From Candidatus Poribacteria bacterium (lineage in GTDB: Bacteria; Poribacteria; WGA-4E; WGA-3G), in NCBI GenBank assembly GCA_965242965.1, contig OZ251518.1:5248001-5312000 (forward strand): a stretch of DNA of 64,000 nucleotides. Direction: 5' to 3'. Positions 19,526 through 32,095 of the stretch are shown in pieces. Both the position numbers and the translations under genes were made by a program. The notes under the pieces were generated by a model that made no database searches, was not told where the DNA came from, and was given only the letters and a program-made list of their open reading frames with translations. Within the stretch, counting starts at the first letter, position 1. Each line of letters starts with the position of its first letter.

Positions 19526-20314
19526 ATGAACAAAAACGTTTTCACTTTCACATTACTACTCGGCGTTTGCTGCCTTTTGGCAACTAGCCTCGCAGCAGCA
19601 CCGCGCGATACCGTGCGCATCACGCCCGCGCAGACGACACCCGCGGCCATCGGCGAACACGTGGTTTTCAACGTGGACATCGTCAGTCAACAGCCCATCG
19701 ATGCCTATCAGTTCACGCTGACGTTCGATCCGACGGCACTGCGCTACGTCTCAAACACCAACGGCGACTATTTGCCGGACGCGTTTGTGGCACCGGCGCA
19801 AGTCAAGGCGAGTCAGGTGACGCTGGTGGCGGTGTCGCTATCGGGCAGCAACATGGGAGAAGGCGCGCTTGCCTCCCTCACGTTTGAAGTGCTATCGCAA
19901 CCAACATCGCCGCTGACGTTCTCCGAGGTGTTGCTACCGGTGACGACAGGCGGACTTGCCGAACCGCAAGTGACTCAGAGCACCACGGGTGCAACGCTGT
20001 CGGAACTACGGCAGACGGTGCAAGAAACCGCCGTGTTGCCGAACTATCCGAACCCGTTCAATCCAGAGACGTGGATACCTTACCAACTCGCCGCCCCGGC
20101 CGAAGTAACGCTGTGCATCTATTCGATGCAGGGGGCACTCGTGCGGGAATTGGCGTTAGGGTATCAGGCATCCGGTGCCTATCAACACCGCTCTCGTGCC
20201 GCGTATTGGGATGGGAAAAACGCGCTCGGTGAGACGGTGGCAAGCGGTGTCTATTTCTATACGTTCACCGCCGGCGATTTTTCTGCAACCGGCAAGATGG
20301 TCATCATGAAATAG
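19526..20314 (+). CDS. Secreted cohesin-domain protein with FlgD-Ig/T9SS-like C-terminal domain
   Basis: AGGAG RBS, signal peptide, YQFTLTFDPTALRYV...G.G.LA.LTFEV, LPNYPNPFNPETWIPYQL...WDGKN..GE.VASGVYFY. Confidence 0.82.
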   Translation: MNKNVFTFTLLLGVCCLLATSLAAAPRDTVRITPAQTTPAAIGEHVVFNVDIVSQQPIDAYQFTLTFDPTALRYVSNTNGDYLPDAFVAPAQVKASQVTLVAVSLSGSNMGEGALASLTFEVLSQPTSPLTFSEVLLPVTTGGLAEPQVTQSTTGATLSELRQTVQETAVLPNYPNPFNPETWIPYQLAAPAEVTLCIYSMQGALVRELALGYQASGAYQHRSRAAYWDGKNALGETVASGVYFYTFTAGDFSATGKMVIMK

Positions 20315-20369
20315 CCGGTATCTTCATTGATACCGCAACGGTTAATGTTCCACGAATGCCAAAGAACCA

Positions 20370-20695
20370 GTAGGAGAGACCTCTGGTCTCGATTCTTCCC
20401 GGTAGGAGAGACCTCTGGTCTCGATGCGTTTCATATCGGGACAGGGATGTCCCTCCTACTGCAACAGGTGCGGTATCGGGACAAGGATGTCCCTCCTACT
20501 GCAACAGAGACAGGTGCGGTATCGGAACAGGGATGTCCCTCCTACTGCACAGCATCCGGTAGGAGAGACCTCTGGTCTCGATGCGTTTCATATCGGGACA
20601 GGGATGTCCCTCCTACTGCAACAGGTGCGGTATCGGGACAGGGATGTCCCTCCTACTGCACAAATACTGGTAGGAGAGCCCTTCCCGGTCTCGAT
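20370..20695. repeat. Tandem array of REP hairpins
   Basis: About five TATCGGGACAGGGATGTCCCTCCTAC units interleaved with GTAGGAGAGACCTCTGGTCTCG. Confidence 0.85.
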
Positions 20696-20798
20696 GCTGC
20701 ATTAATCATTTGGCAGATTCACAACTTCACGCCGCGGTGGAAGCGAGGATGCCTCGCGTCCATCGCTGGCAATTCTATTTTTTCATAAGGAGTCTATT

Positions 20799-21452
20799 TT
20801 GAAAACAGTAAAAACGCTTTTCATTTTCGCATCAGTCGTCCTCATCGGTATTGCCTTGGGCGGCTGTGATGAGGCACAGCAAATGGTCCCGCCCACCGTT
20901 GAGGACACAACTACGCCGCCTGTCGAACCACCTGCACCTGTGGAACCCCCGGCGGACGGCGGCGAGGAGACAACGATGCCAACCGTCGAACCACCGCCCA
21001 TGGACGACAATGGCGGTGGGGAGACAACGATGCCACCTGTTGCACCGCCTCCCGTAGTTCCCGAGGGCCCTGTTGTCAGCATCATGCCCGCATCGGTGAC
21101 ATCTCCTTCTGTCGGCGAGCAACTGGTAGTGGAAATTCAGGTTGCAGGCGCGGAAAACGTTTTCGGCTATGAACTCACACTGAGGTTTGATGCCGCCGCG
21201 CTCCGCTATGTTGAGAGTGCAAACGGTGACTATCTGCCAGGGGCATTTTTCGTACCATCGCTGAAAAATGACAACGAGATCGCAATTTACGCTTCGGGCG
21301 CGGGGACCAAAGCCAGCGGCACGCTAGCCACGGTGACGTTTGAAGTCGTCTCACGCCAAGTTTCCACGCTGACGCTCGCTAATGTGCTACTCAGTGATGC
21401 CGACGGTGTCAATTCCGAGCCGCACGTCGTCAACGCGGAGATAAGCGAATAA
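20799..21452 (+). CDS. Lipoprotein with Pro/Thr-rich linker and C-terminal cohesin domain
   Basis: Lipobox ALGGC, PPVEPP linker, GYELTLRFDAAALRYV...SGTLATVTFEV. Confidence 0.8.
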   Translation: MKTVKTLFIFASVVLIGIALGGCDEAQQMVPPTVEDTTTPPVEPPAPVEPPADGGEETTMPTVEPPPMDDNGGGETTMPPVAPPPVVPEGPVVSIMPASVTSPSVGEQLVVEIQVAGAENVFGYELTLRFDAAALRYVESANGDYLPGAFFVPSLKNDNEIAIYASGAGTKASGTLATVTFEVVSRQVSTLTLANVLLSDADGVNSEPHVVNAEISE

Positions 21453-21477
21453 CGGTGACAGGAAACGGTTCTCTCAC

Positions 21478-21770
21478 CGTAGGGCGAGGGCCTATCCCCG
21501 CCATGCACCGATCGCGGGGGACAGGCCCCCGCGCTACGGTATGCAAGGCTGCCTCCGTTTCACCGTAGGGCTTGGGCCCTCGCATGCCACACGCGCATGC
21601 GAGCGGGTTTCCCTCGCCAAGCAACGATCGCGGGGGACAGGCCCCCGCGCTACGCGAAGGGCCGCAGCTCACGGGGACAGGCCCCCGCACTACGGTAGCA
21701 TCGGCGTTTTCCCGATGCCCAGAACCTACAATAAACGCTCACGGGGGATAAGCCCCCACATGACGAAAAA
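21478..21770. repeat. REP cluster
   Basis: GTAG-REP hairpins in inverted pairs. Confidence 0.85.
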
Positions 21771-21784
21771 AAGGAGTATCTCTC

Positions 21785-23242
21785 ATGAAAAATCGAACAC
21801 GTCTCTTGTATTTTTTAACCATTATCTTATGCCTCGGCGCAACAGCAATGAGTTACGGACGAGCTGTTGTCTCCGTAAGTCCCTCTCCCGTTGCATCGCC
21901 GGCAGCAGGAAGCACGCTGAAAGTCAACATTCAAATCAGCAGCGGCAGCGGGATTGCAGGGTATGAACTCACCGTAGAGTTTGATACGTCGGCGTTGACG
22001 TATGTCTCTGCCGCGAACGCGACATATCTCCCATCCGGTGCCTTTGCCCCGAGCCCTGCGGTGTCAGGGAACCGCGTGACGCTTACGGCGGCAGCCGCGA
22101 GTGCAGCAACGAAAAGGAGTGGCACCCTCGCTACAGTCACGTTCCGTGTGGTTGCCGCCAAAGCGTCAACGCTGCGCCTTCGGGACGTTGTTTTGTCCGA
22201 CGTGGCCGGAAAAAACTTAGCCTTCAGCACCAGGAACGGACAGGTAGTTAAAAGCAGTGGGGCAGCCTACGATGTGAATCAGGATGGAAAGGTCAACGTC
22301 AGCGACTTAGTCCTCGTCTCACGCAACCTCGGTTCGCGTTCGCCTTCCAACCCGCGAGCCGATGTGAATGGGGATGGACAAGTCAACGTCAGTGACTTAG
22401 TCCTCGTCTCGCGCAACCTCGGTAAGACGGTCGACCCCGGCACCACGCCACCTCCCGTAGTCACAGAGCCTACGCCACCCGAAGGCATGGTGTTCATCCC
22501 CGCAGGACAATTCCAAATGGGCAGCATCGACGATGAAGCACAAAATGATGAACAGCCCGTGCATACCGTCCACATCGACGCATTCTTCATGGACGAACAT
22601 GAAGTCACCAACTTGGAATACAAGGAATTCCTCCTTGAAAATCCACGCTGGCAAAAGAGCCGTATCGATAAGCGATTCCACAACGGCAACTACCTTAAAC
22701 ACTGGAGTGGCAATAACTACCCCTCCGGGAAAGCGAACCATCCGGTGACGTATGTGAGTTGGTATGCTGCCATGGCGTATGCAGAATGGGCAGGGAAACG
22801 GTTGCCGACAGAGGCAGAATGGGAATACGCCGCACGCGGCGGGCTTGCAGGAATGAAGTATCCCTCAGGGAATACGATTTCCACCCGCCAGGCCAACTAC
22901 AATAGGCATGTCGGGGACACTACAGCTGTCGGACGTTATGCGGCGAACGACTACGGGCTCTACGATATGGCAGGGAATGTGTGGGAATGGTGTCTTGATG
23001 AATATGATGCCGATTTCTACTTTGTTTCTCGCAACAGTCGGAATCCGATTTCGGGTGCGCGGACGATCCAATGGGTACTTGATAACTTCGCGAGTATCCC
23101 GACCAACACCTCGCGCGTGTTGCGCGGCGGCAGTTGGTTCAATACAGCGCGGCTTTTGCGCGTCGCCGATCGCGCCTACACTACGCCAACGGGCACGAAC
23201 GACTACATCGGTTTTCGTTGCGCGAGGGCTGTTACTCCCTGA
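21785..23242 (+). CDS. Cohesin + dockerin + FGE-sulfatase (CLec-fold) protein, putative DGR target
   Basis: Signal peptide; cohesin; two D.N.DG.VNVSDLVLV dockerin loops; EVTN, RLPTEAEWEYAARGG, GLYDMAGNVWEW and RVLRGGSW...IGFRC motifs. Confidence 0.88.
   Translation: MKNRTRLLYFLTIILCLGATAMSYGRAVVSVSPSPVASPAAGSTLKVNIQISSGSGIAGYELTVEFDTSALTYVSAANATYLPSGAFAPSPAVSGNRVTLTAAAASAATKRSGTLATVTFRVVAAKASTLRLRDVVLSDVAGKNLAFSTRNGQVVKSSGAAYDVNQDGKVNVSDLVLVSRNLGSRSPSNPRADVNGDGQVNVSDLVLVSRNLGKTVDPGTTPPPVVTEPTPPEGMVFIPAGQFQMGSIDDEAQNDEQPVHTVHIDAFFMDEHEVTNLEYKEFLLENPRWQKSRIDKRFHNGNYLKHWSGNNYPSGKANHPVTYVSWYAAMAYAEWAGKRLPTEAEWEYAARGGLAGMKYPSGNTISTRQANYNRHVGDTTAVGRYAANDYGLYDMAGNVWEWCLDEYDADFYFVSRNSRNPISGARTIQWVLDNFASIPTNTSRVLRGGSWFNTARLLRVADRAYTTPTGTNDYIGFRCARAVTP
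23111..23230 (+). other. Putative DGR variable region (VR)
   Basis: NNY codons (TTC, AAT, CTT, GAT, GCC, TAC, ACT, GGC, AAC, GAC, TAC) at the positions where CLec-target templates typically carry AAY. Confidence 0.65.
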
Positions 23243-23262
23243 CTCTTAACTCCCTTACCCCT

Positions 23263-23284
23263 TCTGATCGGTTTACCGATCAGA
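23263..23284. promoter_or_regulatory. Perfect hairpin after VR (DGR cis-acting hairpin candidate)
   Basis: TCTGATCGG-TTTA-CCGATCAGA, 20 nt after the stop; a second hairpin GGCGAGAAACC...GGTTTCTCGCC lies at 23358-23391. Confidence 0.7.
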
Positions 23285-23412
23285 CCGTTATGAAATTGGG
23301 GTACGTACTTAATAGACCTAACGCCCAGGCCGGGGTGTGACTCTCGCGGCAAATTCAGGCGAGAAACCCGCTCAAAACGCGGTTTCTCGCCATGCTGCGC
23401 GCCCAGAATTTT

Positions 23413-23760
23413 ATGACAGAATCAACGCTGACAGCCGTGCCAAAACTCTACGATGTCGTCACGTGGTTAATGGGGCGCGTGGAGAAATTCCCGCGCTCGC
23501 AAAAATTTACGTTGGGTGACAGAATCGTGAATCTCGCGTTGGATATTTTGGAATTGCTTATCGAGGCAACTTATACCCGCGACCGGCTTCCGCTTCTTCG
23601 GCGTGCGAACATTCAATTAGAGAAACTTCGCTATCTCATCCGTTTGTCGCATGAATTCAAACTGTTATCAACGAAGCAGTATCGTCATATTTCGGGTGAG
23701 ATTAATGAAGTCGGCAAACGTATCGGGGGTTGGATCAAGAGTCAATCGCGGAGAAAGTAG
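23413..23760 (+). CDS. avd: DGR accessory variability determinant (four-helix bundle)
   Basis: KLYD...VEKFPRSQKFTLGDRI...ANIQLEKLRYLIRLSHE...NEVGKRIGGWIK; basic protein directly after a CLec gene. Confidence 0.88.
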   Translation: MTESTLTAVPKLYDVVTWLMGRVEKFPRSQKFTLGDRIVNLALDILELLIEATYTRDRLPLLRRANIQLEKLRYLIRLSHEFKLLSTKQYRHISGEINEVGKRIGGWIKSQSRRK

Positions 23761-23779
23761 GGCAGCGTAGTCAGGATAT

Positions 23780-25120
23780 CGTAGGGCTTGGGCCCTCGCA
23801 TGCCATACGCGCATGCGAGCGGGTTTCCCTCGCCATCGTTCGCGCAGTCCAACGCTCGCGGGGGACAGGCCCCCGCGCTACGGGCCCTAAAAACGTCCCT
23901 CAAATCGTAGGGCGAGGGCTTGTCCCTCGCCACGCCAATCGTCTGAATCAGGATTTACACGATTATCACGATTAACAAGATTAGGAACTCTAGTCTCCAA
24001 CCGATGCTTAAGGTCCGTAGGACCTTAATGTCTATAGCACCCTGCAATGCGAAGACTCTTAAGGTCTGTAGGACCTTAATGTGCATTCGCGCCGCGTATC
24101 TAGCATCCTATTAAGGACCTAAAGGACCTTGAATACGGTGAAAAGCACGTTTTCTATAGACATTAAGGACCTAAAGGACCTAAAGAGCCGTTTTTTTAAG
24201 AGGTCTCGTCGCCGCGAGAGACATAATCCTGAAAATCCTAGAATCTTGCAAATCCTGATTCAGACAGCTGAGAGATCGCGGGGGACAGGCCCCCGCGCTA
24301 CGGTAAGAAATAGGCAATCGCCGCATGGCACGTAGGGCGAGGGCCTGTCCCTCGCCGTGCCTAAGGTCTGTCAGACCTTAATGTCTATAGCAGCTGCACC
24401 GCAGAGCACCCTAAAGTCCTTTAGGTCCTTAATGTGCCTTGATTCGCTTGGCTGCCATTTCCATTAAGGTCCTAACGGACCTTGAAAACGGTGGCAGATC
24501 TATTTTTCTATAGACATGCAGGACCTAAAGGACCTGAAGAGGCATCCATTGCAAAAAAAATGCTCGCGGCGCGGGAGATGATCTTGTAAATCTTGTAAAT
24601 CCTGCAAATCCTGCTTCAGACAATTAAGATCGCGGGGGACAGGCCCCCGCGCTCCGTCACCTAAAATACCTCTCCTTTACCGTAGGGCGAGGGCCTGTCC
24701 CTCGCCATGCCCCGGTCTGAGCAACAACCATCCGTGTTTTCTGGGTTTCGGGCATTTTTCGCCTAGGTTGAGAGATCGCGGGGGACAGGCCCCCGCGCTA
24801 CGGTATGCAAGGCCGCCTCCGTTTCACCGTAGGGCGAGGGCCTGTCCCTCGCCATGCCAATCGTCTGAAGCAGGATTTACAGGATTATAGGATTTACAAG
24901 ATTAGGGATCCTAGTCTCCAACCGATGCTTTAGGTCCGTAGGACCAAAAGAGGCATCCATTGGAAAAGGAATGCTCGTTGCGCGAGAGATAATCTTTGAA
25001 ATCCTGAAAATCTTGTAAATCCTGCTTCAGAACAGTTAGAGGCACCGCGGGGGACAGGCCCCCGCGCTACGAAAAAAAACGGTTCTTGAGCCATCGCGGG
25101 GGACAGGCCCCCGCACTACG
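23780..25120. repeat. Large mosaic of REP, AGGTCC-palindrome and 9-bp repeats
   Basis: GTAG-REPs, CTATAGACATTAAGGACCTAAAGGACCT modules and AATCCTG/AATCTTG tandems; no credible ORF. Confidence 0.88.
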
Positions 25121-25288
25121 GACGCGCGAACACTTTTTCTCCGCGTGAGTTGCGAGAAACAGACCTCTCTTCCAACAAATATGCAAACGCTGTTTTTTTC
25201 TATGTAAACCAAACCCCACAATTCACGTTAAAACTAACGTTAAAAAATCGCATTCAAAAAGGAGGGCGCGTCTTGAACGCGCTTTTTC

Positions 25289-26449
25289 ATGATACAACAC
25301 TGGACTTTTGACAAGGCAAGGGACAAACCCACTGCCTACATTTACCCTTTACTGATATGTTTGACACTCGCACTGATTTTCCCGGCGATGCTCTGGGCCG
25401 GCCCCGGGCGGACAGGTGCGCAAATCTTGAACCTCGGCGGCGGCGCGCGGGCGAGGGCCCTCGGCGATGCTTTCTCCGCCATTTCCGGTGATGTTACGAC
25501 ATCACTCTGGAATCCGAGCGGTATCGCACAGATGCCGGAGAGCAAACTCCGTTCCGGCCAGAGCGCAGCGCAAGCCTCTATGTTTTATACCGATTACAGC
25601 GCGCCGTTCGGTGAAGCAGGCGAAGGGTTATACTACACCTTTCTCTCCGGCGCGATGCCTCTCGGTGATATGGGGACTATCGGCGCGACACTCCAACTGC
25701 AGGGACAAGGCACGATTGCCGTGACTACCGATTCGCCCGATGTCGTCCGTGAGGAAAGCCTCGGCACGAACTGGGCATTGACGTTCTCTTACGCCGACAG
25801 GATTACCGAAAATCTGGCGGCGGGAATTAGCGGCAAGATGATTCGGATGGTGCTCGGTAGGGAGAACGGGAGTTCTTACGCCGTTGACATGGGGATGCAG
25901 TATCTGCTGCCGGTTGATATGATGCCGATAACCGTCGGCGCAGCGATTCAGAACGTCGGCCCCGGTATTTCGTTTATTGATGAGAATCAGGCTGATCCGT
26001 TGCCGCGCCTCCTCCGCCTCGGCACCTCTATGAGTCTTTTGCGCGCGAAACATCACCACATCCGCTTCGTCAGCGGCATCACGGCGTATATTGATAAACT
26101 TGCCGAAAATGAAGAGGAACTCACCGCAGATTTGGACCGGTTGAACGCCGAACGCGAGGACAAACTGACGCGCGAGCAGCTCCTCTCCGACCGGGGTGTC
26201 GGTATCCGCGCGTTTGAATGGCGACACCTCCAAAAAAACCTCGGCTTAGAATATTGGCTCGGAAACCTGCTGGCACTCCGCGTCGGCTACAAGGCGGAAC
26301 CGGGCATCAACTTGCCCGATCTCACCGACTATTTTACCTACGGCATCGGTATCCAAGTCTACCTTTTCAACCTAGATTTAACTTACGGCCCACGCTTCGG
26401 TCCGAGTCGTGAACGGCTCATTGAGGCGACGGGGATAGTCGTCTTTTAG
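25289..26449 (+). CDS. PorV/PorQ-family outer membrane protein
   Basis: GAQILNLGGGARARALGDAF...WNPSG and YAVDMG motifs, barrel strands, terminal Phe. Confidence 0.82.
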   Translation: MIQHWTFDKARDKPTAYIYPLLICLTLALIFPAMLWAGPGRTGAQILNLGGGARARALGDAFSAISGDVTTSLWNPSGIAQMPESKLRSGQSAAQASMFYTDYSAPFGEAGEGLYYTFLSGAMPLGDMGTIGATLQLQGQGTIAVTTDSPDVVREESLGTNWALTFSYADRITENLAAGISGKMIRMVLGRENGSSYAVDMGMQYLLPVDMMPITVGAAIQNVGPGISFIDENQADPLPRLLRLGTSMSLLRAKHHHIRFVSGITAYIDKLAENEEELTADLDRLNAEREDKLTREQLLSDRGVGIRAFEWRHLQKNLGLEYWLGNLLALRVGYKAEPGINLPDLTDYFTYGIGIQVYLFNLDLTYGPRFGPSRERLIEATGIVVF

Positions 26450-26458
26450 AGGATAAAT

Positions 26459-27220
26459 ATGAAAATCTATACGCGAACCGTGGTCCTTGCGATGGTGTGC
26501 TGTTTGGTATCCGGGGTTTGTCTTGCTACGGATGAAGCGGCTGTAAACGCTCTCAACGGGTTTTATCTTGAGTCTGCGCTGGGGAATCGGACATTGGAGT
26601 CAGCGGATGCGGCGATACCGCTGAAATCGCCGAACGAGGCGTTTCTCTATTCGCTCGTTTTGCCGGGCGCGGGGCAATTTTATACGGGTGCGAAGCGCGG
26701 CTATCTCTACGCCGCCGCCGAGGTAGGGTTGCTCGCCACCTACTTTATCTTGCGCAATAGTGCCGCGAGCACGCGCGATGAATATCGCGATGTCGTCAGG
26801 CAGCACGTTATTTTTGACGGCCCCGGGTCTTTTGATAATTGGGATCTGGTTGAAGATTTCGAGCACGCGACGCAGTATGAAAACTGGAACCATGTCTACG
26901 ATTCTGAAGCGACACGGACGCGGACAGGAAAGTGGTATTGGGAGGACGCGCGGCCTTTTAAAGACGAGGAAGACATCGCTATCGATTTTGACTCGCGCCA
27001 CCGATTGGAGGCGTTCGATCTTCGGCAACAGGCGAATGACAAGTTTGAACTCGCACGCACCTTCCTCGGCATGGCGATTTTGAACCACGTCGTCAGCGCG
27101 ATTGATGCGCGTATCACAACCAAAAGTTGGAATCGGAAGCAGGCGCGGGCGAACTCTCTGGAGATAGGCGTGCAAGCAGGCGCGACGGAAAGCGCGGTAA
27201 TGCTGCGGAAATGGTTCTAG
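26459..27220 (+). CDS. Hypothetical exported/membrane protein
   Basis: Signal peptide; KSP..AFLYSLVLPGAGQFY and NHVVSAIDA motifs. Confidence 0.7.
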   Translation: MKIYTRTVVLAMVCCLVSGVCLATDEAAVNALNGFYLESALGNRTLESADAAIPLKSPNEAFLYSLVLPGAGQFYTGAKRGYLYAAAEVGLLATYFILRNSAASTRDEYRDVVRQHVIFDGPGSFDNWDLVEDFEHATQYENWNHVYDSEATRTRTGKWYWEDARPFKDEEDIAIDFDSRHRLEAFDLRQQANDKFELARTFLGMAILNHVVSAIDARITTKSWNRKQARANSLEIGVQAGATESAVMLRKWF

Positions 27221-27226
27221 TTAGGT

Positions 27227-27487
27227 GAGGGGGTTTCATAAATCGTTTTCCCCGGTAGGAGAGACCTCCCGGTCTCGATGCATCGCGCATGCGCGAGACC
27301 GTAGTTCGGGAGCGCCCGCTCCCGAACGGGTCAAGATCAGGCGATCTTGACCTACAGGGGTGATGCGGGCTGACACCAAAACGCATGGCGAGGGCCTGTC
27401 CCTCGCCCTACGTGAAGGGACGGCGTTTTTTTTCACTGTAGCGCGGGGCCTGTCCCCGCGAAGTTGAGCAATTTATGAAACACCCTC
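27227..27487. mobile_element. TIR-bounded MITE-like element
   Basis: TIRs plus a perfect 8-bp direct repeat AGTTAGGT on both flanks. Confidence 0.88.
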
Positions 27488-27552
27488 AGTTAGGTTCGCA
27501 GCGCGAGGGCTTGTCCCTCACGTCATGCATAACCAAAAGGACAGATACGAAA

Positions 27553-28491
27553 ATGTCTATAGAAACCCCAAAACTTTTAGACGCGTTAAATTCAGTCACC
27601 GCAATTCCTGTTATCCCCTTCAGTGGTAACAAAATTGATTACGCAGGGCACGCGAAAAACGTTGACTATTTAATGCGCAACAACTATCTTGACGCGGGGC
27701 GGCCCCGTGTCATCGCCATCGCCGGCACGAGCCTGATTCATCACATCAGCGAAACAGAGCAACTCCGCCTCGTTGAGAAAACAGGGAAGCAGATAGGAGA
27801 CGATGGCATCCTCATTTCCGGCATTGTGCCAAACCCGATTCACCAAGCCGGGCAGCTGATTGAGGCACAAGCGGAACTGCCGAGGCCGCCAGATGCCTAT
27901 CTGCTGATGCCGCTCACCGGCATATCAAGTCCCGAAGGCATTTATGAGCAGTATATGGCGTTCGGCGAACGTTATGGCGATTCTTGCGGCGCGCGGCTTC
28001 TCTACTATTTCCGGCAGAAGCGCGATCTGGATGCTGTTATCCGATTGCTGAAAGATTCGCCGCACTTCATCGGTGTAAAAATCGGCACGGGTGAAGAGGA
28101 TGTGACACCTCTCGTTGCTGGAGTTGGCGATAGCGGCCTCGTGATGTGGGGTATCGGGGATAGGTGCACGCGCGCAGCGCAGCTCGGCACGAAAGGACAT
28201 ACTTCCGGGATTGCTGTCGCATTCGCGCGCGCATCAGATGAGATTAACAACGCGCAACGCCGCGGCGACTACGAGACATCGGCGCGCATTGAGGCGGACA
28301 TCGCGCCGCTTGAAGAAATTCGTTTCATGAACGAACGCGTCTACAACTATTCGGCGGTAGTAGAGGCGATGCTCTTGAGCGGATTTAGTGATATTGTGGG
28401 TGGTACCGGCGGGCCGTTTAATCCGCGTGTGCCATCTGAAATTCAGGAGCAGGTCCGCGCGGCGACGCGAAATCTGAAGAAATATCATTAA
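27553..28491 (+). CDS. DapA/NanA-like class I aldolase family protein
   Basis: AIPVIPF...IDY, LLYY and FIGVKIG (Schiff-base Lys) motifs. Confidence 0.72.
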   Translation: MSIETPKLLDALNSVTAIPVIPFSGNKIDYAGHAKNVDYLMRNNYLDAGRPRVIAIAGTSLIHHISETEQLRLVEKTGKQIGDDGILISGIVPNPIHQAGQLIEAQAELPRPPDAYLLMPLTGISSPEGIYEQYMAFGERYGDSCGARLLYYFRQKRDLDAVIRLLKDSPHFIGVKIGTGEEDVTPLVAGVGDSGLVMWGIGDRCTRAAQLGTKGHTSGIAVAFARASDEINNAQRRGDYETSARIEADIAPLEEIRFMNERVYNYSAVVEAMLLSGFSDIVGGTGGPFNPRVPSEIQEQVRAATRNLKKYH

Positions 28492-28509
28492 TGCCAAGTT
28501 ACGTTGATT

Positions 28510-28993
28510 GAGAGTATTTCATAAATCGCTCAACGTCGCAGTGACAGGCCTTCGCGCGCCGGTAGGAGAGACCTCCCGGTCTCGATGCTTCCCTTTCCCG
28601 TAGCGCGGGGGCCCTCGGATGCCATACGCGCATCCGAGCGGGTTTCCCCCGCGAGCTCCATCGTCAAGCGGTGGCGTTTTAGGTCCTTTAGGACCTTAAT
28701 GTCTATAGAAAAACGTGTCGTGCAGTTTTTAAGGTCCTTTAGGTCCTTAATAAAACACGCGCGGCCCTGGCAAAACCTATTAAGGACCTAAAGGACCTTA
28801 GCGTTTTTCGCGTCCGCGCGTGCTATAGACATTAAGGACCTAAAGGACCTAAGAATCGTTTTTTCATCGTAGTGCGGGGGACAGGCCCCCGCGAGCGTTG
28901 GATTGCGCGAACGATGGCGAGGGACAGGCCCTCGCCCTACGTGAAGGGGGGGGCGTTTCTTTCGCGACGTTGGGGGATTTATGAAACACCCTC
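28510..28993. mobile_element. TIR-bounded MITE-like element
   Basis: GAGAGTATTTCAT...ATGAAACACCCTC ends; no clear target duplication. Confidence 0.75.
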
Positions 28994-29026
28994 AGGATAT
29001 TTGGAAGTGCGAGAGGGGTTATCACC

Positions 29027-29632
29027 ATGCCGTATAGCCATTTTACGCTAGATACAGTGCGAGACGCATTTCAATTAGAAAGAGTTAACGCCCGGGGTAT
29101 CTTTGCCGACGTTGAACCTATAAAACCCAGTGAACTTCTCACCGCCGTGTTGGCGCGCAGTGTGCCGTTAGCCACCGCTATCGGTACCGAAAAGGCAAAA
29201 TCCGAAATGATTGTAGCGCAGGTTCTCATTGAACTCAGCGAACTTTTAGATAACCGCGTCAGTCTTTTTTCGGGGATTGACTTCAACGTTGATAAAGATT
29301 CCGGCTTGACAGGGGTTGCTGATTTTCTAATTAGCCTCTCCCCGTGGCAATTTTCTTTGGAGGCTCCTGTCATTATCCTTGTTGAGGCGAAGGACGATGA
29401 TTTGGAAATCGGCCTCGGACAATGTGTCGCAGAGATGGTGGCTGCCCAACGTTTTAATGCGGCGCAAGAAAATGACATTCCTCGCATCTACGGTGCCACC
29501 ACGACAGGCGTGATGTGGCGGTTCCTCAAACTAGAGGGACAGACATTCCACGTTGACATGATGCCTTATCCACTAGTGCCGTGCGATAAAATCTTGGGCA
29601 TCCTTGCCAGCATGGTGGAACAAAAGGCGTAA
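29027..29632 (+). CDS. Conserved hypothetical protein with PD-(D/E)xK-like motif
   Basis: GLTGVADFLIS...IILVEAK...GLGQCVAEM...YGATTTG..W.F. Confidence 0.7.
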   Translation: MPYSHFTLDTVRDAFQLERVNARGIFADVEPIKPSELLTAVLARSVPLATAIGTEKAKSEMIVAQVLIELSELLDNRVSLFSGIDFNVDKDSGLTGVADFLISLSPWQFSLEAPVIILVEAKDDDLEIGLGQCVAEMVAAQRFNAAQENDIPRIYGATTTGVMWRFLKLEGQTFHVDMMPYPLVPCDKILGILASMVEQKA

Positions 29633-29665
29633 AACGCCACAGCCTCATAGGAGAGAAATTTCATC

Positions 29666-31381
29666 ATGGCTTACGATAGTTTAACGTTACGCCTTGTCAC
29701 AGAAGAGCTTCGCCAAACGCTTTTAGGTGGCACCATCAGGCATATTGAACAGGCAAACCCGACGACTTTTTCGTTCAAGATTGCGCGCGGGGTTGAGACG
29801 CGTTGGCTGACGCTCTCGGCGCATTCGGTTCATGCGCGCGCACATCTCATCCAGCGGCCGCCGCCGGGACAGAAGCAGTCCTACCTCGCCGATTTCCTCA
29901 CGACGCATCTGAGACGCGGGACTATCACCGAAATTGCGCAACTCGGCTGGGATCGGATTCTGAAAATCACTGTTCAACCCGTATCCGATGAACCGATTCA
30001 GCCGTCCCCGAAGGCAATCCTCGCGGAGTTTATGGGGAAACATAGTAACATTATCCTGATTGATGCGACAGACGACAGGATTTTGGAGAGTCTCAAGCAT
30101 ATTGACGAAACGCAAAGTCGGCACCGAGAGGTTTTGCCGGGCGAAACCTACTGTTTGCCGCCGCAACAGGAGAAGGCAGCCCCGTTGGAACTTGATGAGA
30201 CAGGTTTCGCTGCCATCGCTGAAAGTCTCCCACAAGTAACGTGGCGCGGGCTGTTCAATAACATCGATGGGCTCAGTCCGACGCTCGCGAAAGAAATCAT
30301 CGCGCGGGCAGAAGAGGTGCAGCTCTGGGCTGCTTATCAGCAGGTTATCGCCTATTTTGACGCGCGCCACATCTCCCCGCAGTTGCTCCTTGATGGAACA
30401 GAACCGATTGACACATCGCCGATGCCGCTGCATCAATTGCCGAATGCTACCTCCCAAACGTTTGACACGATGAGCGAGGCACTCTGTGCCTATTACGATG
30501 CGATGACGTTGAAAGAGGCGATGGCATCGGAACGGCGCGCGCTCACGCAGGCGTTGGATAAACAGCGCGCATTGCTCAAGCGGAAAGAGAAGGGGTTGAC
30601 GACAGATTTGGCACGTGCCGAAAAAGCCGCGGATTATCGCGTTCAAGGCGAACTTATCCTTGCGAATTTGCATCGCATTACCCGCGGGCAAACGGAGGTA
30701 GAACTGCAAAACTACTACAGTCCGAACTTGGAGACAATTTCGATCTCGCTGAATCCGGAACGGAGCCCTTCCGATAACGCGCAAGCATATTTCAAGAAAT
30801 ACACGAAAGCGAAACGGGGACATTCGCGCATCTTGCAACTCATTGCCGAGGTGGAAGCGGAGAAGAAGGTGCTGCAATTGGAAACCGCCAAACTTGAAGC
30901 GGCGAATTCATTGGACGCGCTCCAGCAGCTTCGCACGGAATTTGTCGCGAACGGGTATCTCAGGGCGCGGCAGCAGAACAGACAGAAGCAGCCGTTAAGC
31001 GAAGGACCCTTCCGAAAATACACCTCTGCGAACGGGTTTCAGATGTATGTCGGCAGGAACAGCCAGTCAAACGATTTGCTCTTGCGCCAGATTGCGAAGC
31101 CGCGCGATATGTGGTTGCATGCGAAGCAAATCCACGGATCACACGTCATCGTCCGGAACCCGGAAAACCGTCAGGATATTCCAATGCCGACGTTGTTGCA
31201 AGCGGCGCAGCTCGCCGCCTATTACAGCAAAGCGCACCATGCAAGTCATGTCCCCGTAGACTACACGTGGGCGCGTTACGTAGTGAAGCGGAAGGGCAAC
31301 GTTGCGGGGTATGTGCATTACACGCATGAAAAGACGTTATATGTGGAGCCTGCGCTTCCCTCGTCAAAAGCGGAGTCATAG
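29666..31381 (+). CDS. rqcH: NFACT family protein RqcH (FbpA)
   Basis: DRIL, EFMGKHSNIIL, NAQAYFKKYTKAK and VGRN...W.H...GSHV...VPVDYT motifs. Confidence 0.92.
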   Translation: MAYDSLTLRLVTEELRQTLLGGTIRHIEQANPTTFSFKIARGVETRWLTLSAHSVHARAHLIQRPPPGQKQSYLADFLTTHLRRGTITEIAQLGWDRILKITVQPVSDEPIQPSPKAILAEFMGKHSNIILIDATDDRILESLKHIDETQSRHREVLPGETYCLPPQQEKAAPLELDETGFAAIAESLPQVTWRGLFNNIDGLSPTLAKEIIARAEEVQLWAAYQQVIAYFDARHISPQLLLDGTEPIDTSPMPLHQLPNATSQTFDTMSEALCAYYDAMTLKEAMASERRALTQALDKQRALLKRKEKGLTTDLARAEKAADYRVQGELILANLHRITRGQTEVELQNYYSPNLETISISLNPERSPSDNAQAYFKKYTKAKRGHSRILQLIAEVEAEKKVLQLETAKLEAANSLDALQQLRTEFVANGYLRARQQNRQKQPLSEGPFRKYTSANGFQMYVGRNSQSNDLLLRQIAKPRDMWLHAKQIHGSHVIVRNPENRQDIPMPTLLQAAQLAAYYSKAHHASHVPVDYTWARYVVKRKGNVAGYVHYTHEKTLYVEPALPSSKAES

Positions 31382-31467
31382 GGTCTGGTAAGCGCGGTTT
31401 CAAACTGCGCTAAAGTTTTTTTGTTGACATCATTTGTGATTGTGTTATATTATTCTCCAATTAACAT

Positions 31468-32095
31468 GAGGGTGTTTCATATTTCGATGCGTTCGGTAGG
31501 AGAGACCTCCCGGTCTCGATTTCTTCCCGTAGCGCGGGGGCCTGTCCCCCGCGATCGTTGGATTGCGCGAGCGATGGCGAGGGACAGGCCCTCGCCCTAC
31601 GGTGAAGGCGTGGCGTTTTTTACCGTAGCGCGGGGGCCTGTCCCCCGCGATCTCCATCATTACGAGGTGCGTCTAGGTCCTTTAGGACCTACATGTCTAT
31701 AGAAAAACGTGCCAGTCCCTTTTTCAAGGTCCTTTAGGTCCTTAATCATGAAAACACGCCGCACCGCAAAATCTATTAAGGACCTAAAGGACCTTAGTGT
31801 TCTTCGCGGGCGCGCGTGCTATAGACATGCAGGACCTAAAGGACCTGAAGAGAAAGGATAGACGTTTTTCCCTAGCCCGAAGCATGGCGAGGGACAGGCC
31901 CTCGCCCTACGGTGCAGTGCCGTTTTTTTCCCGTAGCGCGGGGGCCTGTCCCCCGCGATCGTTGGATTGCGCGAGGCATGGCGAGGGAAACCCTCTCGGA
32001 TGCGCGTGTGGCATCCGAGGGCCCTCGCCCTACGGTGAAGGGGGCGTTTTTTATCCTAGCGCGGTTTGCTACGTTTCACCGTAGCGCGGGGGATA
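31468..32095. repeat. REP mosaic with left-hand TIR
   Basis: GAGGGTGTTTCAT at 31468, followed by REP and AGGTCC modules. Confidence 0.85.

What the first reader, a model, noticed from the sequence alone, without database searches (positions are those of the whole stretch)
21785..23760. DGR target cassette: cohesin-dockerin-CLec protein, VR, hairpin and avd
Seen: an exported protein ends in an FGE-type domain (RVLRGGSW...IGFRC), followed by a pyrimidine-rich tract, a perfect hairpin (23263-23284) and an Avd-like gene. NNY codons fill the variable positions of the last 40 residues. Known: diversity-generating retroelements mutate template adenines (often in AAY codons) into the VR of CLec-fold targets, using RT, Avd and a hairpin after the VR. 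Inference: this is a hypervariable ligand-binding tip on a cohesin/dockerin protein.
Basis: partly seen in the sequence, partly recalled or inferred. Interest (0 to 1): 0.85.

Follow-up and report, generated by a model that had tools for sequence, protein, structure and literature searches.

The report
DGR target cassette lacking its enzyme
This is the target-gene half of a known hypermutation system (a diversity-generating retroelement) in a sponge-symbiont bacterium, with the variable protein tip, a DNA hairpin and the helper gene intact, but no reverse transcriptase or template was found in the assembled genome.

Summary
ORF 21785-23242 encodes a signal-peptide, cohesin, dockerin and FGE-sulfatase (C-type-lectin) protein. 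It is followed by a pyrimidine-rich tract, a perfect 9-bp hairpin (23263-23284) and a bAvd gene (23392-23760).

Seven related Candidatus Poribacteria genomes carry the same locus as target-avd-RT-TR. Their TR/VR differences fall almost only on template adenines, so this is a DGR cassette by orthology. The VR is 23111-23225.

In this 5.70 Mb, 2-contig assembly (94.66% complete) I found no reverse transcriptase of any kind, no template repeat, and only this one avd. Homology to relatives stops at 23747, and REP/MITE-type repeats follow.

Eight VRs dispersed over the chromosome still share a genome-specific scaffold. Identity is 96.9% at non-adenine positions, against 38.8% at template-adenine positions and 43% just upstream. 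A DGR therefore wrote them recently.

Best reading (about 0.65): a very recently decapitated multi-target DGR, now frozen. Main rival (about 0.25): RT and TR exist but are unassembled, in a minority haplotype, or supplied in trans.

This is a known kind of system. New points are the host phylum and the cohesin-dockerin target. The scan has noted RT-less DGR loci before, on other genomes.

The parts
21785..23242 (+). DGR target gene, 485 aa: signal-like N-terminus, cohesin (about 21890-22201), two dockerin repeats (about 22268-22420), FGE-sulfatase/C-type-lectin domain (about 22481-23227)
   Evidence: ORF; Pfam; PDB sequence matches to formylglycine-generating enzymes (5.3e-35) and to the T. 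denticola DGR variable protein TvpA, 2y3c (5e-13); dockerin direct repeat 22270-22333 / 22360-22423 at 91%.
23111..23225 (+). Variable repeat (VR), 115 nt, in register with the template repeats of seven related genomes; positions that vary among the eight best own-genome VRs lie at about 23132-23209
   Evidence: All 32 of 32 columns that are A in at least 5 of 7 relatives' TRs vary among own-genome VRs. Scaffold columns are 96.9% identical pairwise among the eight best VRs.
23226..23262 (+). Conserved 3' flank of the VR (GGGCTGTTAC..TGA..TCTTAAC..CCTTACCCCTT): IMH-like end and pyrimidine-rich tract, running past the stop codon
   Evidence: Shared with other own-genome VR ends and, as TTTACCCCTT, with relatives. 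The TRs of relatives diverge from their VRs right after GCGCGA. The IMH function is inferred, not tested.
23263..23284 (+). Perfect 9-bp stem, 4-nt loop DNA hairpin after the VR; likely the target-recognition hairpin/cruciform
   Evidence: z -5.94, 0 of 200 shuffles. A hairpin of different sequence sits at the same place in 6 of 6 cassette-adjacent VRs of relatives. The same or a near-identical hairpin follows four other own-genome VRs. Function by analogy to BPP-1 (PMC3240598, abstract).
23358..23391 (+). REP-like palindrome (GGCGAGAAACCCGC...GCGGTTTCTCGCC) abutting the avd ATG. Homology with the same-genus genome G001 ends here
   Evidence: Sequence; pairwise alignment.
23392..23760 (+). avd (bAvd accessory gene), full length and collinear with relatives. 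The real start is probably the ATG at 23413. The last three codons (RRK) differ from relatives
   Evidence: Pfam; only one avd in the genome; 76-82% identical to the Avd of Poribacteria with intact DGRs.
23748..23780 (.). Breakpoint: homology to the relatives' avd-RT-TR cassettes ends at 23747, and repeat DNA starts at 23780
   Evidence: no match beyond 23747 in any of 9 related loci; repeat 23780-23835 is 98% identical to 21564-21619.
23780..25280 (.). About 1.5 kb of REP/MITE-type palindromic repeats where relatives have RT and TR
   Evidence: families D1-D4, D8-D10, D13, D16; very high summed contig depth; 3446 REP-core hits in C1.

Best explanation
The region is the left half of a chromosomal, multi-target diversity-generating retroelement of Candidatus Poribacteria. 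It comprises a secreted cohesin-dockerin protein whose C-terminal FGE-type C-type-lectin domain ends in the VR (23111-23225), an IMH-like flank with a hairpin that marks the site for cDNA homing, and the accessory gene avd.

In related genomes the cassette continues with a DGR reverse transcriptase and then the template repeat. There, TR RNA is reverse-transcribed with misincorporation at adenines, and the cDNA replaces the VR. This rewrites AAY codons of the ligand-binding face.

In this genome the RT and TR have been removed at a breakpoint just after avd and replaced by REP/MITE repeats. The VR here, and at least seven sister VRs elsewhere on the chromosome, are therefore most likely frozen records of very recent diversification.

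Shown: domain content, Avd identity, orthology and synteny with complete cassettes, adenine-specific TR/VR differences in relatives, the genome-specific VR scaffold, and no RT or TR found in the assembly.

Inferred: the hairpin/IMH function, surface display and ligand binding, that the loss is real rather than an assembly or population effect, and that the loss is recent.
For: Identity of the parts:
- Pfam FGE-sulfatase 2.1e-65, dockerin 1.3e-17, cohesin 9.7e-11, bAvd 3.8e-23.
- PDB match to TvpA 5e-13.

Orthology with complete cassettes:
- 8 Poribacteria loci encode Avd at 76-82% identity.
- The ORF after avd is RVT_1 in 5 of 5 tested (E 1.5e-23 to 9.2e-26). The ORF before avd is FGE-sulfatase in 4 of 4 tested. 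L008 adds cohesin and dockerin, L004 adds dockerin.
- Cohesin genes lie upstream in L005 and L008, as they do here.
- The TR lies just after the RT. TR/VR mismatches at TR adenines: 15/15 (L004), 15/15 (L005), 15/16 and 20/20 (L006), 21/22 (L007), 14/15 (L008).

Loss in this genome:
- PF00078 finds 0 matches in the own genome, while 3 of 14 control genomes ring.
- tblastn with 7 relatives' RTs gives a best E of 0.30.
- Only one avd is present.
- No A-rich VR copy by blastn or by nhmmer with a profile of 7 TRs plus flanks. That search gave 33 hits, all significant ones being VRs inside FGE genes. The one A-rich hit (E 0.96) lies in an unrelated coding frame.
- Homology to relatives ends at 23747.

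Past DGR activity here:
- Among the eight best VRs, pairwise identity is 96.9% at 73 never-A columns, 38.8% at 32 TR-A columns and 43% in the 30 nt upstream.
- 32 of 32 TR-A columns vary against 20 of 73 never-A columns among 11 VRs.
- Same-genus G002 has its own scaffold with synonymous differences (GCGGGGTGGC, CGTTGTGCGA) shared by its VRs. The scaffolds were therefore homogenised within each lineage.

Erosion is common in the group:
- DGR-type RT (E below 1e-190) occurs in 3 of 40 relatives.
- avd fragments occur in G007, G020 and G024:C276, and none in same-genus G001 and G002.
- In G001 the orthologous locus ends exactly at the avd ATG.
Against: - The eight VR scaffolds show no more decay (0-3 deviations each) than the VRs of G009, a genome with intact RT and TR, which range from 0 to 10 non-A mismatches. 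The data therefore cannot separate 'just lost' from 'still served'.
- avd is intact and full length.
- The breakpoint lies in repeat-dense DNA, where assemblies or populations can differ, and the genome is estimated 94.66% complete.
- Three species of the genus lack the RT, yet at least two have lineage-specific homogenised scaffolds. That requires independent recent losses, which is not parsimonious.
- The window VR against the TRs of other genera is not A-only (16-19 of 26-35 mismatches at TR-A), as expected across genera. No own TR exists to test directly.
Confidence: 0.65

Rival explanations
1. The DGR is still active. RT and TR exist in the organism or its population but are missing from this assembly. 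They could sit in a minority haplotype in which the REP-flanked RT-TR segment is not deleted, in a collapsed or unbinned piece, or on a mobile element that serves chromosomal targets in trans.
For: - VR scaffolds are as clean as in a genome with an intact DGR.
- avd is intact.
- The breakpoint lies in a REP/MITE array.
- Completeness is 94.66%.
- Same-genus G002 also has homogenised VRs but no RT or avd, which hints at something systematic.
- Trans service of incomplete loci is described in Thiohalocapsa (PMC10907252, passages).
Against: - The locus lies inside a 5.66 Mb contig without N.
- No RT of any class was found on either contig.
- The second contig (38 kb) has neither RT nor VR hits, and has 1 REP core against 609 per Mb in C1, so it may not belong to this organism.
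- In the 3 relatives that have the RT, it is chromosomal and next to avd.
Confidence: 0.25
2. The RT and TR were lost long ago, in the ancestor of the genus. The VR-like ends are old fossils kept similar by protein-level selection or by gene conversion among paralogues.
For: All 3 genomes of the genus (own, G001, G002) lack an RT. Many further FGE paralogues carry decayed VR-like ends with 5-19 scaffold deviations.
Against: - Within-genome scaffold identity includes synonymous sites. It differs between the own genome and G002 at synonymous sites.
- The paralogues are only 43% identical in the 30 nt upstream of the VR, so they are not recent duplicates.
- Gene conversion would also homogenise the adenine columns, which are the most variable (38.8% identity).
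- An avd left unused since the genus split would be expected to have decayed, as it has in G001, G007, G020 and G024:C276.
Confidence: 0.05
3. This is not a DGR part at all: an ordinary FGE-family enzyme gene next to a 23S-rRNA-IVS-type four-helix-bundle gene.
For: The 23S_rRNA_IVP family gives a weak match (2e-05, 25.2 bits). The genome holds 40 FGE-domain matches, some without VR-like ends.
Against: - The IVP score is below its cut-off of 33.8, while bAvd scores 82.5 against a cut-off of 40.
- The locus is syntenic with complete target-avd-RT-TR cassettes.
- Variation among the VRs follows the template-adenine columns.
Confidence: 0.02

Closest known systems
Treponema denticola DGR and its variable protein TvpA (PDB 2y3c); 'category b' CLec1/FGE-sulfatase targets of Wu et al. 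2018 (PMC5758913, passages read)
   Same: - The VR sits at the C-terminus of an FGE-sulfatase-type C-type-lectin domain (PDB match 5e-13).
- The element is chromosomal, with several remote targets.
- An avd accessory gene is present.
   Different: - The N-terminal cohesin and dockerin modules are not among the words of Wu et al. ('cohesin' 0 and 'dockerin' 0 occurrences).
- The host is Poribacteria.
- No RT or TR was found in this genome.
Bordetella phage BPP-1 DGR (mtd-avd-TR-brt) and its target-site hairpin/cruciform (Guo et al. 2011, PMC3240598, abstract read)
   Same: - The order target/VR, then hairpin, then avd.
- The hairpin's stem position is conserved while its sequence varies between relatives. 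[quoted passage not shown]
   Different: - In relatives the order is avd-RT-TR, not avd-TR-RT.
- The hairpin lies about 37 nt after the VR's last template-matching base, behind a pyrimidine tract.
- The element is cellular, not on a phage.
- The RT and TR are lost here.
'Degenerate' or incomplete DGR loci of Thiohalocapsa sp. PB-PSB1 (Doré et al. 2024, PMC10907252, passages read)
   Same: - A locus where key machinery is missing.
- Many dispersed targets. In this genome these include caspase-domain proteins with FGE-type VR domains.
   Different: In Thiohalocapsa each class keeps one complete locus that can act in trans. Here no complete locus, RT or TR was found anywhere in the assembly.
Complete Poribacteria DGR cassettes found here (L002-L008; G004, G009, G024)
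   Same: - An orthologous locus: cohesin genes, a cohesin/dockerin-FGE target, a hairpin, and Avd at 76-82% identity.
- Large sets of dispersed VRs.
   Different: They keep the RT (352-361 aa) and a 115-123 nt TR right after it. This window stops at the end of avd.

Membership tests
Diversity-generating retroelement (complete, functional cassette) | DGR-clade reverse transcriptase in the cassette or genome | tested here: not met
   PF00078 finds 0 matches in the own genome. tblastn with 7 Poribacteria DGR RTs gives a best E of 0.30. The RT is present in relatives.
Diversity-generating retroelement (complete, functional cassette) | Template repeat that differs from the VR only at adenines | tested here: not met
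   No TR was found in the own genome by the repeat finder, blastn or nhmmer with a TR profile. The feature is met in relatives: 14/15 to 21/22 mismatches at TR adenines.
Diversity-generating retroelement (complete, functional cassette) | VR at the 3' end of a target gene with a C-type-lectin or FGE fold, variable at AAY-derived codons | tested here: met
Diversity-generating retroelement (complete, functional cassette) | Accessory gene avd | tested here: met
   bAvd PF22296 at 82.5 bits against a cut-off of 40. Collinear with the Avd of complete cassettes.
Diversity-generating retroelement (complete, functional cassette) | IMH and hairpin/cruciform downstream of the VR | tested here: inconclusive
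   The hairpin is present, significant and positionally conserved. The VR/TR divergence point after GCGCGA is seen in relatives. An IMH/IMH* pair cannot be defined without an own TR, and function was not tested.
Diversity-generating retroelement (complete, functional cassette) | Ongoing VR-restricted variation in the population | tested here: inconclusive
   Only short Logan contigs were available. None of the 40 listed differences lies in 23111-23225, but 182 more were not shown and contigs drop rare variants.
bAvd (PF22296) | Score above the curated Pfam cut-off over the full domain | tested here: met
   3.8e-23, 82.5 bits, residues 17-117 against profile positions 5-106 of 107.
23S rRNA intervening-sequence protein (PF05635) | Score above the curated Pfam cut-off | tested here: not met
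   25.2 bits against a cut-off of 33.8.
FGE-sulfatase domain (PF03781), non-enzymatic DGR-target subclass | Full-length domain match; sequence similarity to a solved DGR variable protein | tested here: met
   221.3 bits over profile positions 3-255 of 255. TvpA 2y3c at 5e-13. Absence of catalytic activity was not tested.

The most novel reading that the evidence does not exclude
An intact avd and at least eight pristine, dispersed VRs are kept in genomes with no reverse transcriptase because the RT and TR are supplied from outside the chromosome. The source could be a mobile element, a phage or a minority haplotype. Diversification in this Poribacteria genus would then be a shared or intermittent service, not a fixed cassette. 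The same-genus genome G002, which has its own homogenised VR scaffold but neither RT nor avd, would be a second case.
Probability: 0.12. Interest if true: 0.75.

Novelty: new member of a known kind. Interest (0 to 1): 0.42.

Why it matters
DGRs are the only known natural system of targeted protein hypermutation in prokaryotes. This locus shows three things.

- Sponge-symbiont Poribacteria carry chromosomal DGRs with unusually large target sets. About eight to nine near-perfect VRs and some twenty decayed ones per genome were seen here and in G009.
- The cassette-proximal target couples a variable lectin tip to cohesin and dockerin modules. This suggests a plug-in variable binder on a cell-surface scaffold.
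- The engine (RT and TR) is lost again and again in this family, while targets, and here avd, remain.

I found no paper on DGRs in Poribacteria or on dockerin-bearing DGR targets in the held library. Supplementary tables of large DGR surveys were not examined and may list them.

For annotation, the practical point is that this VR should not be called actively hypervariable without read-level evidence.

Tried and rejected
- Public runs (12 runs in 5 studies hold part of the stretch) were kept only as short Logan contigs. After laying 4 runs on 21700-25600, no listed piece bridges the end of avd into unique DNA. The repeat zone collects contigs from hundreds of copies. One run (X11) has an exact 110-nt contig over 23123-23232. 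This says nothing about the junction, rare variants or activity.
- The metagenome-contig scan with Avd returned 45 loci with a best identity of 56%. No conspecific contig was found, so it gives no test of alternative haplotypes.
- The 65-nt VR-end match at C1:31239-31303 looked like a possible TR. It is a non-A-rich fragment of a VR 3' end.
- The A-rich nhmmer hit at C1:580971-581037 (E 0.96) lies in an unrelated open frame.
- My first TR/VR comparison for L003's cassette-adjacent VR was out of register (66 mismatches) and is not counted. Redone with gaps, it gives 16 of 19 mismatches at TR-A (L108).
- Two second VRs of relatives are less clean: L003 at 19 of 26 and L004 at 20 of 25 mismatches at TR-A.
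- align_proteins with guessed Avd coordinates failed on a stop codon. A script replaced it.
- No formal covariation test of the hairpin was run, because stem lengths differ between genomes. Only per-locus folds were made.
- No structure prediction, complex prediction or RNA-family search was run.
Full report
**What is there**

The window is G000:C1:5248001-5312000 of a 5,700,154-base assembly in 2 contigs, without N. ORF 21785-23242 (+) encodes 485 aa.
- Pfam finds Cohesin (9.7e-11, residues 36-139), Dockerin_1 (1.3e-17, 162-212) and FGE-sulfatase (2.1e-65, 233-481, full profile).
- By sequence it matches solved formylglycine-generating enzymes (5.3e-35) and the Treponema denticola DGR variable protein TvpA, 2y3c (5e-13).
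- The N-terminus looks like a Sec signal. This is read from the sequence and was not predicted by a tool.
- After the stop (23240-23242) come a pyrimidine-rich tract and the perfect hairpin 23263-23284 (-8.5 kcal/mol, z -5.94, 0 of 200 shuffles). The scan does not call it terminator-like.
- ORF 23392-23760 is bAvd (82.5 bits, cut-off 40). The 23S-rRNA-IVS family scores 25.2 bits, below its cut-off of 33.8.

**Relatives show what the locus is**

A scan of genome contigs with Avd gave 24 loci. Eight, all Candidatus Poribacteria MAGs, encode Avd at 76-82% identity.
- The ORF directly after avd (352-361 aa) is RVT_1 in 5 of 5 tested. The ORF before avd is FGE-sulfatase in 4 of 4 tested. L008 adds cohesin and dockerin, and L004 adds dockerin.
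- Cohesin-domain genes precede the target in L005 and L008, as in the window (19526-20314 and 20799-21452).
- A 115-123 nt copy of the VR lies just downstream of each RT.
- For the cassette-adjacent VRs, TR/VR mismatches at TR adenines are 15/15 (L004), 15/15 (L005), 15/16 (L006), 21/22 (L007), 14/15 (L008), and 16/19 for L003 when aligned with a gap.
- Second VRs give 20/20 (L006), 20/25 (L004) and 19/26 (L003).

These are working-looking DGRs with the order target-avd-RT-TR. By eye, its predicted TR differs from the L005 TR at 2 of 59 positions in the second block.

**The hairpin**

In 6 of 6 cassette-adjacent VRs of relatives, a hairpin with an 8-13 bp stem and a 3-4 nt loop follows a conserved TTTACCCCTT motif at the same distance. 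The stem sequences differ between genomes.

In the own genome the same or a near-identical hairpin follows four other VRs (1244304, 1252979, 1260894, 5173755). One G002 VR has a variant with a changed inner stem.

This fits the BPP-1 result that a hairpin/cruciform just after the VR is needed for efficient homing, and that its stem structure matters rather than its sequence (PMC3240598, abstract). Function here is inferred.

**What is missing**

- Homology to all nine related loci ends at 23747. The last three Avd codons (RRK) differ from relatives.
- From 23780 to about 25280 there are only REP/MITE-type palindromic repeats. The unit at 23780-23835 is 98% identical to 21564-21619, upstream of the target.
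- The own genome gives no PF00078 match, while 3 of 14 control genomes ring.
- tblastn with seven Poribacteria DGR RTs gives nothing better than E 0.30.
- There is a single avd.
- No TR was found. The direct-repeat search of 20000-32000, blastn of the VR against the genome and nhmmer with a profile of seven TRs plus their flanks (33 hits) return only VRs inside FGE genes (A fraction 0.10-0.24). The exceptions are a 65-nt VR-end fragment and a chance hit in an unrelated frame.

**The VRs were nevertheless written by a DGR, and recently**

The genome has 40 FGE-domain matches and 25 VR-like ends. I defined template-adenine columns from the relatives' TRs: A in at least 5 of 7 gives 32 columns, never A gives 73, and 10 are mixed.
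- All 32 of 32 adenine columns vary among the 11 best VRs, against 20 of 73 never-A columns. The Fisher p of 1.4e-13 overstates the case because the sequences are kin.
- The eight best VRs are the window, 1244304, 1252979, 1260894, 1433955, and three in one 1,287-aa ORF at 3998450-4002313.
- They are 96.9% identical pairwise at never-A columns, 38.8% at adenine columns and 43% in the 30 nt upstream. Each deviates from the common scaffold at 0-3 positions.
- The remaining VRs show 5-19 deviations.
- G009, a one-contig relative with intact RT and TR, shows the same graded picture: 0-10 non-A mismatches, then a group near 19-20.

Same-genus G002 has neither RT nor avd. Its VRs share their own scaffold, which differs from ours at synonymous sites. 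The scaffolds were therefore homogenised within each lineage after the species split. Ancient loss, protein-level selection and ordinary gene conversion do not explain this.

**Distribution**

- Among 40 relatives searched, a DGR-type RT (E below 1e-190) occurs in 3 (G004, G009, G024), all in the same family as the window. The same three have full avd.
- avd fragments occur in G007 (residues 7-86), G020 (56-94) and G024:C276 (with a TAG).
- In G001 (same genus) the orthologous target is followed by the 73 nt that precede avd, and homology stops exactly at the avd ATG. The hairpin segment 23255-23318 is also gone.
- In G002 the left and right flanks of the locus lie about 2 Mb apart.

Erosion of this cassette is frequent and happens at different breakpoints.

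**Other targets**

The sister VRs sit in proteins with Peptidase_C14 (caspase), PEGA and one to three FGE domains. One 955-aa protein has dockerin and three FGE domains. Caspase- and STAND-linked FGE targets and degenerate loci are described for Thiohalocapsa (PMC10907252, passages). Three tandem FGE domains in one target, and up to seven or eight targets, are described by Wu et al. 2018 (PMC5758913, passages).

**Verdict**

This is a real DGR half-cassette of a known kind. It is the FGE-sulfatase 'category b' target class, the largest in Wu et al.

I give 0.65 to recent loss of RT and TR, with the VR now frozen. I give 0.25 to RT and TR that are present but unassembled, in a minority haplotype, or supplied in trans. 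The lack of any scaffold decay and the intact avd keep that rival alive. The public data I could lay were short contigs and could not decide between them. A metagenome scan found no conspecific contig.

**Literature**

Searches for Poribacteria or sponge symbionts with DGRs, and for dockerin with DGRs, found nothing relevant. Supplements of DGR surveys were not examined.

Earlier notes of this scan describe the REP/MITE load of this genome and RT-less DGR loci in other genomes. The kind of finding has therefore been seen before, on other DNA.

Noticed in passing
window 23780-25280, 21470-21700, 24000-24950, 28590-29010, 31460-32000; whole contig C1: Intergenic DNA is packed with GTAG-headed palindromic REP/MITE-type repeats (18 direct-repeat families in 12 kb). 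Four REP-core motifs occur 3446 times in C1, or 609 per Mb. Earlier notes of the scan describe the same for this genome.
   Followed up: partly
contig C2 of the own genome (38,183 bases): C2 has 1 REP-core hit (26 per Mb) against 609 per Mb in C1. It has no VR, avd or RT hits. It may be a mobile element or may not belong to this organism.
   Followed up: no
G000:C1:3998450-4002313 (-), 4005225-4008197 (-), 4008403-4011258 (-), 1242756-1244435, 1251425-1253110, 1259070-1261028: Sister DGR targets are signal-peptide proteins with a caspase (Peptidase_C14/CHAT) domain, a PEGA domain and one to three FGE/VR domains. One 1,287-aa ORF carries three near-perfect VRs.
   Followed up: partly
window 19526-20314, 20799-21452, 25289-26449, 26459-27220: The target is flanked upstream by two further cohesin-domain proteins. 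One also has FlgD_ig and a weak T9SS sorting-domain match. Downstream lie PorV-like and DUF5683 proteins. This suggests a surface cohesin-dockerin assembly linked to type IX secretion.
   Followed up: no
L006:448-738 (relative, 5.4 kb upstream of its complete cassette); L009 and L032 (G024:C276): Relatives that have a complete DGR also carry second, decayed copies. L006 has a VR end plus the 3' half of avd. G024:C276 has a target plus avd truncated by a TAG, followed by an unrelated minus-strand ORF.
   Followed up: partly
G000:C1:31239-31303 (-): An isolated 65-nt fragment of a VR 3' end (GGTTTTCGTTGC...TCTTAA) lies outside any FGE ORF, about 1.2 kb upstream of a truncated FGE gene.
   Followed up: partly
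window 20399-20503 and 20556-20660: A 105-nt direct repeat at 99% identity lies in the spacer between the two cohesin genes (family D11).
   Followed up: no
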